Assembly (NCBI GenBank): GCA_004365705.1
Contig: SOBN01000001.1
Location: forward strand, 1,542,555 to 1,566,554
DNA from: Streptomyces sp. 846.5
GTDB taxonomy: Bacteria; Actinomycetota; Actinomycetes; Streptomycetales; Streptomycetaceae
Length of the DNA: 24,000 bases
Reading direction: 5' to 3'
This document shows, piece after piece, positions 11,210 through 14,485 of this stretch. How positions within the stretch are numbered: the stretch's first letter is position 1; each line of letters opens with the position of its first letter. The position numbers and the translations under genes are program-made. Under the pieces are notes generated by a model that did no database searches, had not been told where the DNA came from, and saw only the letters and a list, made by a program, of their open reading frames with translations.

Positions 11210-11437
11210 CTACTCACTACGAAGCGGTTCCATCAGCTCGTCCGTGCTCATCGTGGTGCTCGCCCGCCCCCGCAAACCCCGCACCAACCGCTGCCCGCGC
11301 GTCTCGCCGCTCCCCGCACGCACGATCTGCAGGATGTTCCTAACCTCGATCACGTCCAACTCGTCACCCTTTTGCAGGCGGTACTTCTTCCGCAGCGCGG
11401 CGGGGATTGTGGCCTGCCCCTTGCTGTTGAGCCGCAT
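11210..11437 (-). CDS. AbrB/MazE/SpoVT-type DNA-binding antitoxin (VapB-like)
   Basis: MRLNSKGQATIPAALRKKYRLQKGDELDV is a swapped-hairpin AbrB-type N-terminus, and ...GRASTTMSTDELMEPLRSE is a typical VapB C-terminal tail. RBS AGGGAG lies 9 nt upstream of the ATG, which is 23 nt after the upstream stop. Confidence 0.8.
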   Translation of the reverse strand: MRLNSKGQATIPAALRKKYRLQKGDELDVIEVRNILQIVRAGSGETRGQRLVRGLRGRASTTMSTDELMEPLRSE

Positions 11438-11460
11438 GGCGGAGCTCCCTGGGCTGGCTG

Positions 11461-12273
11461 CTATGGCAGCAGGGTGAGTGAGGGGACGTGCGCGGGCTTG
11501 ACAACGCTGAAGTGCCGCAGATCGAGGGTGGCCACCCGGTCCACGCCGAAGCGCTCGGCCACTGCGATGACGGATGCGTCAACCCCGCCGAGCGGGAAAT
11601 CGGCGTACTGGAGAACCAACTCCGGGTGCAGCGCGATCGCGCCCGAGGCGGTGAAGATCTTCTTCTGTCCGCTCTCGTCGACGATCTCGAACGCGGCGAA
11701 GTTCTCTGTGCCGGCCGTGTCCCGCAGATCGTCGAGTACCAGCGGCCACCAGCTCTCCCGGTCTACGAAAGCCGCCGGGTCGGCTTCCTGCAACTGTCTT
11801 TGGAAGTCCTCGAATGCGGCCTGCGCCGCCTCCGGGCTGTCGGTCGCGCCCAGCAGATCGAGGAGGACGTCCAGGGCGAGCAGTGCGGCCGCGAACTCCT
11901 CCGGGCTGGAACTGACGAAGCGCAGCGGCTCGCTGTACCCGAGGAGCATGGCCTGGACACGTCCGTCCGGGTCCGCGACCAGCTCATACGCACGGTCCGA
12001 GCCGAGGCGGGACCAGGACAGGTACTCGGCGGAGCGCAACGATTTCGACGTCGCCACCGCGTACTCGCGCAGCGCTGCGGGCTCGCTCGCGGCGGTGCGG
12101 AAGTACGGGCCGGCCTGGAGCGGCAGCGTCAGTGCCGCGATCCTGGACAGCGCCGCCGCCTCCGGGGCCGCAGGGTCGCTCACGGCCGCATCGGCGCCGA
12201 ACCGTCGCAGCCCCCCGTCGCCGAACCAGGCGGCCATGGCCTCGTCGAGCCGGGCGCCTTCCGGGTGGCTCAC
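11461..12273 (-). CDS. SUKH-4-like immunity protein fused in frame to a C-terminal PIN (VapC) remnant
   Basis: Residues 1-~190 resemble SUKH-4 immunity proteins (LGSDRAYELVADPDGRVQAML..., ...LQEADPAAFVDRESWWPLVLDDL). Residues ~195-270 (nt 11464-11691) read like the last half of a VapC PIN domain (LVLQYADFPLGGVDASVIAVAERFGVDRVATLDLRHFSVVKPAHVPSLTLLP). The GTG start overlaps the upstream stop (GTGA). An alternative ATG is at 12237. Confidence 0.7.
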   Translation of the reverse strand: MSHPEGARLDEAMAAWFGDGGLRRFGADAAVSDPAAPEAAALSRIAALTLPLQAGPYFRTAASEPAALREYAVATSKSLRSAEYLSWSRLGSDRAYELVADPDGRVQAMLLGYSEPLRFVSSSPEEFAAALLALDVLLDLLGATDSPEAAQAAFEDFQRQLQEADPAAFVDRESWWPLVLDDLRDTAGTENFAAFEIVDESGQKKIFTASGAIALHPELVLQYADFPLGGVDASVIAVAERFGVDRVATLDLRHFSVVKPAHVPSLTLLP

Positions 12274-12851
12274 TCTCCGAACGTCCTCACGTATTCCAAA
12301 ACCGTGTACCAGGTCGCGTCAGGGTTCTGCAGGGCGACCGGATCGGCCGCACGCATGACGGCGAGAAGCCGTTCGTCCACTCCCTCGCCGAAATCCTCGT
12401 CGTCCTCGTACCCGTTCTCCTCGGCGAATTCGGCATCGTAGTTGGGGCGCTCGGCCTCGACGCTGTAGAGGAAGTAGAGGAAGTCGTCCAGACTGCTGTT
12501 GAGCAGATAGGGGTCGGCGCCGCTCCCCGGAATGCAGTAGACGGCACCGCTCGCGGCGTCGACGACCATGTTGTCGTAGGGAATTCCGCCGATGGCGATC
12601 CACTCGTCGAAGACCAGGTCCGACGATGGATGCAGCTCGCGGCCGCGCGGCCAGCCCTTGTCCGCGATCTCGGCCGGCAGGTCCTTGACCGTCTGGAACC
12701 ATCCGGTGTGCTGGTCGGGCAGACCGACGTCGCGCAGCAGTTCGCGGGTTCGTCCGTGGGAGACCGGCGCAAGGGCGCTCTCCGGTACGGTGACCAGGTC
12801 AGCGGCTGGAAAGACCGACTCCATCAGAGCCCGGTCGACGGTCTGCGGCAT
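12270..12851 (-). CDS. SUKH-4 family immunity protein (candidate cognate immunity of the deaminase toxin)
   Basis: TRELLRDVGLP..., IPYDNMVVDAASGAVYCIP, LLNSSLDDFLYFLYSV, an acidic C-terminal half, and a position directly downstream of the toxin domain gene (68-nt gap). This matches my recollection of SUKH-4 proteins that follow actinobacterial deaminase toxins. Confidence 0.7.
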   Translation of the reverse strand: MPQTVDRALMESVFPAADLVTVPESALAPVSHGRTRELLRDVGLPDQHTGWFQTVKDLPAEIADKGWPRGRELHPSSDLVFDEWIAIGGIPYDNMVVDAASGAVYCIPGSGADPYLLNSSLDDFLYFLYSVEAERPNYDAEFAEENGYEDDEDFGEGVDERLLAVMRAADPVALQNPDATWYTVLEYVRTFGE

Positions 12852-12919
12852 GCCTCGTATCCTATCTGTTCCGGTGCAACCGCCGTACAGCGGCCAGGTG
12901 GTGCTGGTGCGGTGCCGGC

Positions 12920-13702
12920 TCAGCGCCCGCCGGGAACCAGTGCGTCAAGGTACTTGCGCATCGCCTCATTGCCGGCCGTCCGTGACGCCTCGGTACTTCC
13001 GTACTCGATGCTGTGCGACACCTTCATGCCGGAGGACATGTACTTGCTCATCCAGGCACTGCAGTTGACGCTGTTTGTACAGGGTGCTCTTTCCGTGTAG
13101 AGCTCGGTGACCCCGCCCGACGTCCCCCGCTGCAGGAAGGGGATCCCCAGCGCACGTTCGGAATGCGTGGGGTACATGCTGCGTCCGACCAGGATGAATC
13201 CTCCCGGGTCTCCGGGCTCGCCGTACCTGACAGCCGCATAGTTCTTGCTGGTGAACTTCTTCCCACGGTAGGTCCCGTAGTCCCCCGCCTCGTGCCGGGC
13301 CAGCTGGGTGGCAGCGGCCAGGTCGGTACTGCCGACCGGTACCTCGGCCGAGGCCCGCCGACGGCTCTCGCCCTCTTCGATCTTGGGCAGGTTGTAGGGG
13401 CTGTCCTTGCCGACCGGACGCTCCGGAACCCTGCTGTTGCCGTCCAGCCCCAGCGGCAGGGCCGCACGCTCCGCCTCGGTCAGCGGAACCGGCCCATGGG
13501 GGGTGAGCCGGTCGACCGCCAGGTCGTCGTTCAGACGGTAGACCGGGGTCTCCCCGATCTTCCCGTGCAGGTCCTGGCGGGCCTTGTCGAGGGCCGCCAT
13601 TCTTGCCTCATGCTCGGCGTCGGCCGCGGCGGTGTTCTCGGCTACATCGACGGCCCCCTTCTCGGTGTCCTTGAGGATTCCGTGGTAGGCGTCGGTGAAC
13701 AT
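12920..13702 (-). CDS. Polymorphic-toxin C-terminal module: helical linker plus DddA/SCP1.201-like cytidine-deaminase-fold toxin domain
   Basis: Zinc/catalytic motif H180-S-E182 (nt 13157-13165) and P-C208-x5-C214 (nt 13061-13081). The E-to-first-Cys spacing of 26 equals what I recall for DddA (E1347 to C1373). The gene sits upstream of SUKH-4 genes. Coding signal continues upstream in the -1 frame to ATG 13766 (MSEIAEVFSGAAKKIGKAVVKD), so the ATG at 13702 may not be the ancestral start. Confidence 0.7.
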   Translation of the reverse strand: MFTDAYHGILKDTEKGAVDVAENTAAADAEHEARMAALDKARQDLHGKIGETPVYRLNDDLAVDRLTPHGPVPLTEAERAALPLGLDGNSRVPERPVGKDSPYNLPKIEEGESRRRASAEVPVGSTDLAAATQLARHEAGDYGTYRGKKFTSKNYAAVRYGEPGDPGGFILVGRSMYPTHSERALGIPFLQRGTSGGVTELYTERAPCTNSVNCSAWMSKYMSSGMKVSHSIEYGSTEASRTAGNEAMRKYLDALVPGGR

Positions 13703-13762
13703 CCTTGACCACCGCCTTGCCGATCTTCTTGGCCGCTCCCGAGAAGACTTCCGCTATCTCGC

Positions 13763-14146
13763 TCATGAGAAGTCCAACCACGCGAACTTGCCGGTGAACA
13801 CCGTCGCGTGGCCCTGCACCGCTGCCGCGTGCTGCCCGATCACGGCGGCGTGGGCCTTCAGGTCCGCCGGGTGGATCCGGAACCCGTCGCGCGGCCCGTT
13901 CCCCGAGACGCCCAGGGTGTCCTCCAGCGCCGAATAGCTCATCCCGGCCACGGCCTTCTCGACGGTCCCCAGCAGCGGGGTCAGCGCCGCCTCGATCACC
14001 TGGGCGGTGATGTACTGGATCAGCATCTGCTTCAGGTACTCCACCGCCAGGTCGGCGGCCTCCACGAGGGCCGCCTCCGCCGCCTCGGCGAGCCCCAGGG
14101 TGACCACCGCCGCGGCCTGGTCCGCCACGAACGAGACCGCCAGCAC
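13763..14146 (-). CDS. Middle segment of the interrupted WXG100-like polymorphic toxin (hydrophobic/helical region)
   Basis: It is in the same frame as 14165-14485, and the frame is open right up to the TAG at 14165-14167. There is no SD-like sequence before GTG 14146. LAVSFVADQAAAVVTLGLAEAAEAAL...IEAALTPLLGTVEKAVAG and IHPADLKAHAAVIGQHAAAVQGH resemble the region that follows the N-terminal domain in single-polypeptide actinobacterial toxins. Confidence 0.6.
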   Translation of the reverse strand: MLAVSFVADQAAAVVTLGLAEAAEAALVEAADLAVEYLKQMLIQYITAQVIEAALTPLLGTVEKAVAGMSYSALEDTLGVSGNGPRDGFRIHPADLKAHAAVIGQHAAAVQGHATVFTGKFAWLDFS

Positions 14147-14164
14147 GGCCAGTTCGGCTATGCA

Positions 14165-14485
14165 CTACAGCTTCATCGCCACGATGTAGTCCACCGCCGC
14201 GTCCAACGCGGTCGCCAACAGCGTGCAGCCCTGGTTCAGCTCGGACATATGACTCTGCGACAGATGCGCCCACTTGGACACCAGCAGTTCGTACGAGTTG
14301 GCCTGGTATGCCTCCCCCATCGCCTTGAGCGTGGCGGTCGCACCTTGGTGGGTGTCGTCGATCGCCGCCGCGAAGTCACGCACATGGGTGGCGAACTCCC
14401 GTACCGAGTCCTCGTTCACCTGCGGCCACTTGACCCCGATGACCTGAAGGAACGTCACCACCGGTCCCGGCAGCTCTATCGCCAT
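14165..14485 (-). CDS. WXG100-like N-terminal (T7SS-type trafficking) domain of a polymorphic toxin, ended by an in-frame TAG
   Basis: MAIELPGPVVTFLQVIGVKWPQVNEDSVREFATHVRDFAAAIDD...AMGEAYQANSYELLVSKW has the W-P-x-x-x-E-D ... x-G-E-x-Y helix-turn-helix pattern seen at N-termini of actinobacterial CpnT-like/WXG100-like toxins. A G-rich RBS (GGGGTGGGG) precedes ATG 14485. Confidence 0.65.
   Translation of the reverse strand: MAIELPGPVVTFLQVIGVKWPQVNEDSVREFATHVRDFAAAIDDTHQGATATLKAMGEAYQANSYELLVSKWAHLSQSHMSELNQGCTLLATALDAAVDYIVAMKL

What the first reader, a model, noticed from the sequence alone, without database searches (positions are those of the whole stretch)
11210..14485. Type-VII-style polymorphic deaminase toxin locus with two SUKH-4-like immunity genes and a TA remnant
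Five consecutive minus-strand reading frames form a toxin/immunity cassette that the flanking metabolism genes do not explain. The order is: a WXG100-like N-terminal trafficking domain (14485-14165), a helical/hydrophobic middle region (14164-13763), a C-terminal deaminase-fold toxin domain (13702-12920), two divergent SUKH-4-like proteins (12851-12270 and 12273-11461), and an AbrB-type antitoxin (11437-11210). This is the architecture Aravind and colleagues described for actinobacterial polymorphic toxins, but I do not know this combination to be characterised: a DddA/SCP1.201-like tip, a double SUKH-4 array, a PIN-fused immunity and an AbrB gene. No ESX/T7SS core genes (EccC and others) are in the window, so this is an orphan cassette that would depend on a secretion system encoded elsewhere. 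DddA-family enzymes are the basis of dsDNA base editors, so the substrate preference of an unexplored member is of practical interest.
Basis: partly seen in the sequence, partly recalled or inferred. Interest (0 to 1): 0.85.

Follow-up and report, generated by a model that had tools for sequence, protein, structure and literature searches.

The report
Decayed T7SS-type deaminase toxin cassette
This is a damaged copy of a toxin-and-immunity gene cassette common in Streptomyces relatives (an XOO_2897/APOBEC-like deaminase, not a DddA-like one); only the first immunity gene is clearly intact, so the locus itself is ordinary.

Summary
The reading frames and most domain calls are real: WXG100-like, deaminase, two SUKH-4 and AbrB all pass Pfam cut-offs. 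The interpretation needs four corrections.

1. The deaminase belongs to the XOO_2897 family (Helix-4, AID/APOBEC-like division), not DddA/SCP1.201.
2. The "toxin" is two translationally coupled genes, a 240-aa WXG100_2 carrier and a ~283-aa deaminase. Here the carrier has a G→T amber stop at codon 107, and the deaminase has a 1-nt insertion after codon 22.
3. The second "SUKH-4 immunity" gene is the front 218 codons of a conserved SUKH-4–deaminase fusion. It is cut right after its HPE motif and joined to the last 52 residues of a PIN gene.
4. That ~470-bp PIN-tail/AbrB segment replaces ~2.9 kb that in relatives encodes the rest of the fusion, a P-loop NTPase–WD40 protein and an APH gene.

In 74 of 83 related loci all five parts are present and uninterrupted. 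Streptacidiphilus carbonis has the full cassette in the same GH65–GGT slot.

The XOO_2897 / T7SS / SUKH4 association was published in 2011, and NCBI already names these proteins. The unusual "combination" is a product of decay.

The one lead worth following is the uncharacterised fusion + NTPase–WD40 pair in relatives.

The parts
13763..14485 (-). WXG100_2 (CpnT-N-like) carrier gene, 240 codons, interrupted by an in-frame amber stop at codon 107. Likely a pseudogene.
   Evidence: Pfam PF25547 scores 31.4 bits on the first 106 aa. Read through the stop, it scores 41.9 bits over profile positions 20-142 of 150. The custom HMM hit is split 1-106 | 108-239. Intact 240-aa orthologues exist in L001/L007/L009.
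14165..14167 (-). TAG nonsense codon (Glu107 to stop).
   Evidence: The window reads CTG TAG TGC. L001, L007 and L009 read CTG GAG TGC.
12920..13766 (-). XOO_2897-family deaminase toxin gene. The ancestral start is the ATG at 13766, in an ATGA overlap with the carrier's stop. A 1-nt insertion at ~13700-13701 shifts the frame after codon 22. The annotated ORF is 13702-12920 (260 aa); its catalytic HSE...PC-x5-C motifs are intact.
   Evidence: PF14440 scores 48.6 bits. The window reads AAGGATGTTC where relatives read AAGGAC-TTC. Invariant H180, E182, C208, C214. AF2 pLDDT 89.6.
12270..12851 (-). Free-standing SUKH-4 immunity gene (193 aa). Intact.
   Evidence: PF14435 scores 111.9 bits over profile 1-178 of 179. 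It is collinear with the 193-aa orthologue in L001. Window-branch nonsynonymous:synonymous count is 1:18.
11620..12273 (-). First 218 codons of a SUKH-4-XOO_2897 deaminase fusion gene: the SUKH-4 domain plus the first half of the deaminase domain, ending at its HPE motif. Both zinc-binding cysteines are lost.
   Evidence: PF14435 scores 51.1 bits. The fusion-family HMM covers only positions 5-214 of 288. In alignment A2 the window protein P0047 diverges after HPE. DNA homology to L001 ends at 11620.
11461..11619 (-). C-terminal 52 codons of a PIN (VapC) gene, fused in frame to the truncated fusion gene.
   Evidence: phmmer against M. tuberculosis VapC26 (5x3t_B) residues 104-155 of 155 gives E=2.2e-5. 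Pfam PIN scores 13.2 bits, below its cut-off. The DNA is ~72% identical to the 3' third of a plasmid PIN gene.
11210..11437 (-). AbrB/SpoVT-type antitoxin-like gene (75 aa) with no partner toxin.
   Evidence: PF04014 scores 30.7 bits and TIGR01439 scores 30.3 bits. No room remains for a toxin gene: GGT starts at 11138.
11152..11619 (.). Replacement segment of ~470 bp (PIN tail + AbrB + 58 bp). It stands where relatives have ~2.9 kb: the second half of the fusion's deaminase domain, a P-loop NTPase-WD40 gene and, in L001, an APH gene.
   Evidence: blastn: window 14665-11620 matches L001 5094-8116, and window 11152-9369 matches L001 11019-12814. None of the loci fetched by that point (L001-L086) contains a homologue of this segment.

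Best explanation
The locus is a degenerating copy of a cassette that is conserved across Streptomycetaceae.

How the intact form works, by inference. A WXG100_2 (CpnT-N-like) module either forms the N-terminus of the toxin or is a separate 240-aa carrier whose stop codon overlaps the toxin's start (ATGA). This module takes an XOO_2897-family cytosine deaminase to the ESX/type VII secretion system. The downstream SUKH-4 protein binds and neutralises the toxin in the producer cell. Intact copies also carry a second, intracellular SUKH-4-deaminase fusion and a P-loop NTPase-WD40 protein of unknown role.

What has happened in this strain:
- The carrier is cut short by an amber codon at position 107.
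- The toxin has lost its coupled start and first 22 residues to a 1-nt insertion. At best, a 260-aa product can be made from a new ATG.
- The fusion gene is truncated between its HxE motif and its zinc cysteines, and is joined to a PIN gene tail.
- The NTPase-WD40 gene is deleted.

Only the free-standing SUKH-4 gene, and the small AbrB gene, remain whole. The SUKH-4 gene most likely persists as protection against the residual toxin or against neighbours' toxins.

Shown: the gene structures, lesions, family assignments, synteny and conservation in relatives. Inferred: T7SS export, cytosine (probably ssDNA) deamination, neutralisation by SUKH-4, and loss of function here.
For: Family calls:
- Pfam hits.
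- 38 homologues of the toxin are free-standing ~283-aa proteins with a conserved N-terminus.

Intact syntenic loci:
- L001 has an uninterrupted syntenic cassette.
- L009 has GH65, the full cassette, GGT and TrpRS in the same slot as the window.

Survey:
- 74 of 83 related loci have all five parts; 54 have the carrier fused to the toxin and 20 have them split.
- 20 of 21 split junctions are ATGA/GTGA overlaps.

Lesions:
- Nucleotide-level lesions and breakpoint.
- GGT and GH65 in the window align end to end with relatives without frame disruption, so sequence quality is good.

Selection on the window branch (nonsynonymous:synonymous):
- Carrier 20:37, against 7:40 in relatives (p=0.025).
- SUKH-4 1:18.

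Catalytic residues:
- Invariant and present in the toxin.
- Both cysteines absent from the truncated fusion.

Fold and literature:
- AF2 model pLDDT 89.6; its best PDB matches are all AID/APOBEC.
- XOO_2897 clade linked to T7SS and SUKH4 immunity (PMC3239186).
- ssDNA cytidine deaminase activity reported for the clade.
- An ESX-secreted toxin with WXG100 partner proteins was shown in M. abscessus (PMC13444075).
Against: - No experiment exists on this protein family's export, substrate or immunity.
- The toxin's catalytic domain is intact, and a 260-aa ORF is annotated by NCBI. Some activity could therefore persist.
- The toxin and the fusion remnant show no excess of nonsynonymous change on the window branch, so any inactivation is recent, or these parts still matter.
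- The selection tests rest on small counts and are uncorrected for multiple testing.
- I could not see raw reads, so the two point lesions could in principle be assembly errors.
- I could not check whether the genome has a T7SS or a second, intact cassette.
Confidence: 0.8

Rival explanations
1. The cassette is a working orphan toxin-immunity unit. The 260-aa deaminase is made from the ATG at 13702, is exported with help from a T7SS encoded elsewhere, and is neutralised by one or both SUKH-4 proteins.
For: - The catalytic HxE and PC...C motifs are intact.
- The 260-aa ORF is confidently foldable and is annotated by NCBI.
- SUKH-4 is intact and conserved.
- Other WXG100_2 carrier paralogues exist in related genomes and might substitute.
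Against: - The dedicated carrier is cut at codon 107 of 240.
- The toxin lacks the 22 N-terminal residues, part of the region kept when tips are swapped and so probably the carrier-docking element.
- The coupled ATGA start is out of frame with the toxin body.
- All 74 complete loci keep these parts uninterrupted.
Confidence: 0.1
2. The amber codon and the 1-nt insertion are sequencing or assembly errors. The carrier and toxin genes are really intact, and only the downstream deletion is real.
For: - Single-base indels are a common error type in long-read assemblies.
- The toxin shows no excess nonsynonymous change.
Against: - The amber is a substitution, not an indel.
- About 4.1 kb of flanking GGT and GH65 coding sequence aligns to relatives with no frame disruption.
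- Every other coding indel relative to L001 is a multiple of three.
- The carrier shows relaxed constraint on this branch.
- A third, unambiguous structural lesion lies in the same cassette.
Confidence: 0.08
3. Programmed recoding restores a full product, through amber read-through in the carrier and a +1 frameshift in the toxin.
For: All three pieces lie in one reading frame.
Against: - Relatives encode Glu (GAG) at the amber position and have no extra base, so no recoding signal is conserved.
- Two further stops (TGA 13763, TAG ~13754) separate the pieces.
- The conserved arrangement is a plain ATGA overlap.
Confidence: 0.02

Closest known systems
XOO_2897-like deaminase polymorphic toxins with SUKH-4 immunity (Iyer, Zhang & Aravind, NAR 2011; Pfam PF14440 / PF14435)
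   Same: - The same deaminase family and the same immunity family.
- T7SS (WXG-type) trafficking in actinobacteria is listed for this clade.
- The clade signatures are present: HxE, PC...C, a conserved Glu before helix 3, an aromatic residue after strand 4, and no strand 5.
   Different: - This copy is damaged.
- The toxin is split into carrier and cargo genes.
- Intact relatives carry two further conserved genes (a SUKH-4-deaminase fusion and an NTPase-WD40 protein) that I did not find discussed in the text of those papers. Their figures could not be read.
DddA (Burkholderia cenocepacia; SCP1.201 / BaDTF1 family dsDNA deaminase toxin)
   Same: A deaminase-fold antibacterial toxin with an adjacent immunity protein.
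   Different: - A different clade: the C-terminal hairpin division rather than Helix-4.
- No PF14428 hit.
- DddA ranks 41st among structural matches, E=1.5.
- It is delivered by T6SS, not T7SS. dsDNA activity cannot be assumed here.
CpnT (M. tuberculosis) and EatA/TapA (M. abscessus) ESX-secreted toxins
   Same: - An N-terminal WXG100-like/CpnT-N-type module or small helical WXG100 partner proteins, needed for ESX export of a C-terminal toxin.
- UniRef names the 240-aa carrier family 'CpnT-like N-terminal domain'.
   Different: - Different toxin domains: an NAD+ glycohydrolase and an arabinan-targeting GH183 toxin.
- Export of the Streptomycetaceae cassette has not been tested.
LXG toxins with Lap partner proteins (Bacillota T7SSb)
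   Same: A helical N-terminal targeting region, separately encoded helical partners, a downstream immunity gene, and swappable toxin tips.
   Different: A different N-terminal family (LXG versus WXG100_2) and a different secretion-system subtype (T7SSb versus actinobacterial ESX).
VapBC type II toxin-antitoxin modules (AbrB-type VapB + PIN VapC)
   Same: The AbrB/SpoVT domain and the PIN C-terminal sequence are recognisable.
   Different: - Only the last third of the PIN domain survives, without the N-terminal catalytic acidic residues.
- The gene order (PIN tail, then AbrB) is not that of one operon.
- AbrB has no toxin partner.

Membership tests
XOO_2897-like deaminase (PF14440) | Profile match above Pfam's gathering score | tested here: met
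   48.6 bits against a cut-off of 27, residues 152-249.
XOO_2897-like deaminase (PF14440) | Zinc and catalytic motifs: HxE in helix 2 and PC...C in helix 3 | tested here: met
   H180-S-E182 and P207-C208...C214 are invariant across 35 homologues and present in the window protein.
XOO_2897-like deaminase (PF14440) | Clade signatures of Iyer et al. [quoted passage not shown] | tested here: met
   - Invariant E204 in YTERAPC.
- Near-invariant Y234 after strand 4.
- The AF2 model ends with helix 238-255 after strand 227-232.
- Signatures taken.
XOO_2897-like deaminase (PF14440) | Cytosine deaminase activity on nucleic acid | not testable with these tools
   Only clade-level evidence exists: ssDNA activity in a base-editor reporter.
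DddA / SCP1.201-like deaminase (PF14428) | Profile match to SCP1.201-like family | tested here: not met
   No hit at E<=0.1. A genuine SCP1201-like hit was seen on a neighbouring Rhs protein in L001, so the model works on this kind of data.
DddA / SCP1.201-like deaminase (PF14428) | Closest structural neighbours are DddA-type | tested here: not met
   Foldseek ranks 1-35 are AID/APOBEC. DddA 8e5e_A ranks 41 with E=1.5. All matches are weak.
SUKH-4 immunity protein (PF14435) | Profile match above the gathering score, full length | tested here: met
   - 193-aa protein: 111.9 bits, profile 1-178 of 179.
- 270-aa ORF: 51.1 bits, profile 4-179.
SUKH-4 immunity protein (PF14435) | Binds and neutralises the adjacent toxin | not testable with these tools
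   Only single-chain models were possible. Gene adjacency holds in 79 of 83 loci.
WXG100_2 / CpnT-N-like T7SS targeting domain (PF25547) | Profile match above the gathering score | tested here: met
   31.4 bits (cut-off 27) on the 106-aa fragment, and 41.9 bits when read through the stop. Classical WXG100 PF06013 stays below its cut-off in the window (22-24 bits against 27.3); the L001 orthologue just reaches it at 28.3 bits.
WXG100_2 / CpnT-N-like T7SS targeting domain (PF25547) | Uninterrupted reading frame across the domain | tested here: not met
   TAG at codon 107 lies inside the domain.
WXG100_2 / CpnT-N-like T7SS targeting domain (PF25547) | A T7SS (EccC and others) in the genome, and T7SS-dependent export | not testable with these tools
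   None in the 24-kb window.
Polymorphic toxin system (Zhang et al. 2012) | A conserved N-terminal trafficking module carrying variable C-terminal toxins | tested here: met
   - P0035/P0036 are 83% and 72% identical in residues 1-46 but ~30% in the deaminase domain.
- A carrier paralogue is coupled to a 1303-aa Rhs protein in L089.
Polymorphic toxin system (Zhang et al. 2012) | Cognate immunity gene immediately downstream of the toxin | tested here: met
   SUKH-4 starts 68 nt after the toxin's stop codon. The order is conserved in relatives.
PIN-domain (VapC) toxin (PF01850) | Complete PIN domain with N-terminal catalytic acidic residues | tested here: not met
   Only the residues equivalent to VapC26 104-155 are present. 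Pfam scores 13.2 bits against a cut-off of 23.6.
AbrB/SpoVT-type antitoxin (PF04014, TIGR01439) | Profile match above the cut-off | tested here: met
   30.7 bits (cut-off 24.7) and 30.3 bits (cut-off 28.3).
AbrB/SpoVT-type antitoxin (PF04014, TIGR01439) | Adjacent cognate toxin gene | tested here: not met
   GGT begins 72 nt downstream. Upstream there is only a PIN tail.

The most novel reading that the evidence does not exclude
The cassette is more than toxin plus immunity. In intact relatives it always includes a second, apparently active deaminase fused behind a SUKH-4 domain, coupled to a P-loop NTPase-WD40 (STAND-like) protein.

This pair could be a sensor-controlled intracellular deaminase: a self-inhibited effector released on a signal. 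Possible roles are abortive infection, controlled mutagenesis, or stripping immunity from the toxin before export. It would be functionally tied to a T7SS toxin.

The window would then be a natural knock-out, keeping the SUKH-4 half and losing the catalytic half and the NTPase.
Probability: 0.25. Interest if true: 0.6.

Novelty: new member of a known kind. Interest (0 to 1): 0.3.

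Why it matters
**For this window, little.** It is a decaying copy of a toxin-immunity cassette whose family associations were published in 2011 and whose proteins already carry those names. 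It is not a source of a DddA-like dsDNA editor. Anyone wanting the enzyme should take an intact orthologue such as P0002.

The case is still a clear example of how polymorphic-toxin loci erode while the immunity gene is kept.

**The wider point came from relatives.** At least 280 species-level genomes carry a SUKH-4–deaminase fusion, and in 74 of 83 loci examined it sits in a fixed five-part module with an NTPase–WD40 protein. I found no functional description of this pair. It would repay study.

Tried and rejected
**Look-ups that failed**
- Exact-sequence look-ups of the window's SUKH-4 and deaminase proteins found no contig on record. The rest of the genome, including any T7SS or second cassette copy, could not be examined.
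- One Pfam call failed on wrong coordinates.

**Searches that came back empty**
- NCBIfam had no model for five of the six proteins.
- PADLOC had no model for the fusion, carrier, toxin or SUKH-4. It gave only a WD40-type hit for the NTPase-WD40 protein.
- PDB sequence search of the NTPase-WD40 protein matched only its WD40 half.
- AbrB had no match in plasmids.
- None of the loci held at that point (L001-L086) contained the 470-bp replacement segment, so its donor is unknown.
- Literature searches found no paper on this specific cassette.

**Ideas considered and rejected**
- A single three-domain toxin ORF. Rejected because of the stops and because relatives have two genes.
- DddA-family membership. 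Rejected because there is no profile hit.
- Programmed recoding. Rejected because no signal is conserved.
- The 'split' toxin layout being damage. Rejected because the 4-nt overlap is conserved in 20 of 21 split loci.

Full report
**Observation**

Pfam supports most of the domain calls:

| ORF | Pfam family | Bits | Cut-off |
|---|---|---|---|
| 106 aa | WXG100_2 (PF25547) | 31.4 | 27 |
| 260 aa | XOO_2897-deam (PF14440) | 48.6 | 27 |
| 193 aa | SUKH-4 (PF14435) | 111.9 | 25.5 |
| 270 aa | SUKH-4 (PF14435) | 51.1 | 25.5 |
| 75 aa | AbrB/MazE (PF04014) | 30.7 | 24.7 |

TIGR01439 also matches the 75-aa ORF. The rest of the window encodes ordinary metabolic and transport proteins and no type VII secretion component: luciferase-like oxidoreductase, MFS, methyltransferase, N-acetyltransferase, LtrA, Na/H exchanger, Trp/Tyr-tRNA synthetase, GGT, GH65, an HtrA-like protease and GH36. 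G+C dips to 0.655-0.684 across the cassette, against roughly 0.70-0.76 in most flanking stretches.

**Gene structure**

The three 'toxin' pieces lie in one frame but are separated by TAG (14167-14165), TGA (13765-13763) and a further TAG. Read through the first TAG, the WXG100_2 match lengthens to profile positions 20-142 of 150 and rises to 41.9 bits. The stop therefore sits inside a domain.

From the ATGA at 13766, another frame reads MSEIAEVFSGAAKKIGKAVVKD. This needs a one-base shift to join FTDAYHG...
- The source is Streptomyces sp. 846.5. The 260-aa ORF is 100% identical to a protein NCBI names 'nucleic acid/nucleotide deaminase of polymorphic system toxin'.

The toxin is thus a separate gene from the WXG100_2 protein, and the window copy is frameshifted after codon 22.

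**Comparison with intact relatives**

A Streptacidiphilus contig (L001) carries these genes in order:
1. A 240-aa WXG100_2 gene.
2. A 283-aa XOO_2897 deaminase, overlapping gene 1 by ATGA.
3. A 193-aa SUKH-4 gene.
4. A 303-aa protein with SUKH-4 (48 bits) followed by a full XOO_2897 deaminase domain (81 bits).
5. A 592-aa protein with an N-terminal P-loop (AAA_22/AAA_16/NACHT-like) and C-terminal WD40 repeats.
6. An APH gene, then GGT.

DNA comparison shows three blocks:
- Window 14665-11620 is collinear with L001 5094-8116 at 84.5% identity.
- Window 11152-9369 matches L001 11019-12814 at 85.6%.
- The ~470 bp in between (window 11619-11152) replaces ~2.9 kb of L001.

A nucleotide alignment with three close relatives (L001, L007, L009) pins down the lesions:
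- CTG TAG TGC in the window against CTG GAG TGC in relatives, a G-to-T change of Glu107 to amber.
- AAGGATGTTC against AAGGAC-TTC, one extra base. This is the only coding indel that is not a multiple of three.
- Loss of homology immediately after CACCCGGAG, the HPE motif of the second deaminase.

Streptacidiphilus carbonis (L009) has GH65, the full cassette, GGT and TrpRS in the same chromosomal slot. None of the loci held at that point (L001-L086) contains the replacement segment. The intact cassette is therefore ancestral and the window state is derived.

**The replacement segment**

The last 52 residues of the 270-aa ORF match residues 104-155 of 155 of M. tuberculosis VapC26 (E=2.2e-5). 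The DNA is ~72% identical to the 3' third of a plasmid PIN gene that follows a small upstream gene. Pfam's PIN model scores only 13.2 bits.

It is a PIN tail without the N-terminal catalytic residues, fused in frame by the rearrangement. The AbrB gene that follows has no partner toxin. GGT starts 72 nt further on, and homology to relatives resumes only 14 nt before GGT's ATG. The 'PIN-fused immunity' is an accident of deletion.

**How general the cassette is**

The SUKH-4-deaminase fusion has over 100 clusters in Streptomycetaceae. Every listed member has both Pfam domains except the window's own protein. H-P-E and two cysteines (C-x6-C) are invariant or nearly so across the family, and the window copy lacks both cysteines.

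A scan of species-representative genomes found 280 relatives, of which 80 loci were fetched. Annotated with HMMs built from the cassette proteins:
- 74 of 83 loci carry all five parts on one strand.
- In 54 of these the WXG100_2 and toxin parts are one polypeptide, for example 579 aa in Streptomyces sp. NBC_00285.
- In 20 they are split.
- 20 of 21 split junctions are the same 4-nt ATGA/GTGA overlap, so the split is a conserved, translationally coupled layout and not damage.
- Five loci have the order fusion, NTPase-WD40, carrier, toxin, SUKH-4, which suggests two linked sub-modules.
- Only the window combines an interrupted carrier (1-106 | 108-239), a clipped toxin (HMM positions 21-280), a truncated fusion (5-214 of 288) and no NTPase-WD40 gene.
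- A few other loci show different decay.

**Is the damage real?**

GGT (589 aa) and GH65 (784 aa) in the window align end to end with relatives. About 4.1 kb of flanking coding DNA thus has no frame disruption, while the cassette has two point lesions and a structural one.

Lineage-specific substitutions were assigned by three-way comparison with L001 and L009:

| Gene | Window branch (nonsyn:syn) | Comparison |
|---|---|---|
| Carrier | 20:37 | 7:40 on the other two branches (p=0.025); 21:93 for GGT (p=0.022) |
| Free-standing SUKH-4 | 1:18 | 13:26 in relatives (p=0.023) |
| Toxin | 16:20 | no excess |
| Fusion remnant | 6:18 | no excess |

The counts are small and the tests are uncorrected. 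They fit a picture in which the carrier is decaying and the immunity gene is still maintained. I could not inspect reads, so assembly error for the two point lesions remains possible but unlikely.

**What kind of deaminase**

No SCP1.201/DddA profile hit was found at E<=0.1. The same model does hit a neighbouring Rhs toxin in L001.

Iyer, Zhang and Aravind (2011) place XOO_2897 in the Helix-4 division with AID/APOBEC. They list T2SS/T6SS/T7SS delivery and SUKH4 immunity for it. Their clade signatures are a conserved Glu between strand 3 and helix 3, an aromatic residue after strand 4, and no strand 5. The window protein has all of these: invariant H180-S-E182, E204, C208, C214 and near-invariant Y234.

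The AF2 model (pLDDT 89.6, pTM 0.85) ends in a helix after strand 4. Its best PDB matches are all AID/APOBEC (ranks 1-35, best E=0.028), and DddA ranks 41st (E=1.5). None is strong, so no close structure is solved.

A 2023 preprint reports ssDNA cytidine deamination for XOO_2897-clade members in a base-editor reporter. ssDNA cytosine is therefore the most likely substrate, by inference. dsDNA activity of the DddA type should not be assumed.

**Export and polymorphism**

- The 240-aa carrier belongs to a very large family of at least 584 clusters. Sources name it 'WXG100 family type VII secretion target' or 'CpnT-like N-terminal domain', and genomes hold several paralogues.
- One paralogue is coupled by a 4-nt overlap to a 1303-aa Rhs protein (L089). 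Another heads a second copy of the deaminase cassette in S. rugosus. One is an orphan.
- Two Streptacidiphilus toxins (P0035, P0036) share 83% and 72% identity with the window toxin over residues 1-46 but ~30% in the deaminase domain. Their locus again has carrier, toxin, fusion and a large downstream protein.

These are the hallmarks of a polymorphic toxin: a conserved targeting and docking module with swapped tips. Experimental precedent for ESX export of toxins with WXG100-type modules or partners comes from CpnT and, recently, EatA/TapA in mycobacteria. Export of this cassette is inferred, not shown.

**The unexplained part**

The SUKH-4-deaminase fusion (AF2 pLDDT 88.6, pTM 0.83; weak deaminase matches only) and its NTPase-WD40 neighbour are more uniformly conserved than the toxin. 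They have no PADLOC model. I did not find them discussed in the text of the founding papers; their figures could not be read. Their role is unknown. The window preserves only the front of the fusion.

**Verdict**

This is a new, degenerate member of a known kind. Interest is low for the locus itself. The conserved fusion/NTPase pair in relatives is a moderate lead.

Noticed in passing
L001:7463-10149; also L003:8001-10643 and L005:8001-10604. Remnant at window 11620-12273.: A conserved gene pair. The first gene is a SUKH-4 domain fused to an apparently active XOO_2897 deaminase (invariant HPE...C-x6-C). The second is a ~590-aa P-loop NTPase-WD40 protein that abuts or overlaps it. All five cassette parts co-occur in 74 of 83 loci. 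There is no PADLOC model, and I found no description in the text of the founding papers.
   Followed up: partly
L003:5557-7296 compared with L001:5282-6852: The carrier and toxin are one 579-aa polypeptide in 54 loci. In 20 they are two genes with a conserved 4-nt ATGA/GTGA overlap. This is a gene fission or fusion within one cassette family.
   Followed up: yes
L048, L050, L072, L073, L075 (about 8900-14100 in each): The order is permuted to fusion, NTPase-WD40, carrier, toxin, SUKH-4. This suggests two sub-modules that stay linked.
   Followed up: partly
P0035/P0036; L091:4309-10218: A mosaic toxin: the N-terminal 46 residues are 83% and 72% identical to the window toxin, but the deaminase domain only ~30%. 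In L091 the fusion follows the toxin directly, and a 554-aa SUKH-4 protein closes the cluster.
   Followed up: partly
L089:4001-8634: A WXG100_2 carrier paralogue overlaps by 4 nt with a 1303-aa Rhs-repeat protein in Kitasatospora atroaurantiaca. The carrier therefore serves different cargo.
   Followed up: no
L001:1-5191: In the Streptacidiphilus relative, most of GH65 has been replaced, leaving a 94-aa remnant. In its place are an Rhs toxin with PT-HINT and a true SCP1.201-like (DddA-family) deaminase, an Imm1 gene and a DDE transposase. A DddA-type toxin thus sits next to this cassette in the relative, not in the window.
   Followed up: no
window 11138-11210: Homology to relatives resumes only 14 nt upstream of the GGT start codon. 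GGT's native upstream region is gone, so it must be transcribed from the replacement segment or by read-through from the cassette.
   Followed up: no
window 18960-20027 (-) and 20670-21170 (+): Two ORFs with coding-like GC3 (0.94 and 0.86) but no Pfam hit at E<=1e-5.
   Followed up: no
window 9369-16928 compared with L001/L007/L009: The strain is named Streptomyces sp. 846.5. Its closest syntenic relatives in this region are Streptacidiphilus species, at 84-86% DNA identity and 87-91% protein identity for GGT and GH65.
   Followed up: no
L003:2382-3944: Genes with PF21725 (T7SS_signal) and DUF6317 lie divergently upstream of the cassette in Streptomyces sp. NBC_00285. This may be a small island of T7SS substrates.
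   Followed up: no
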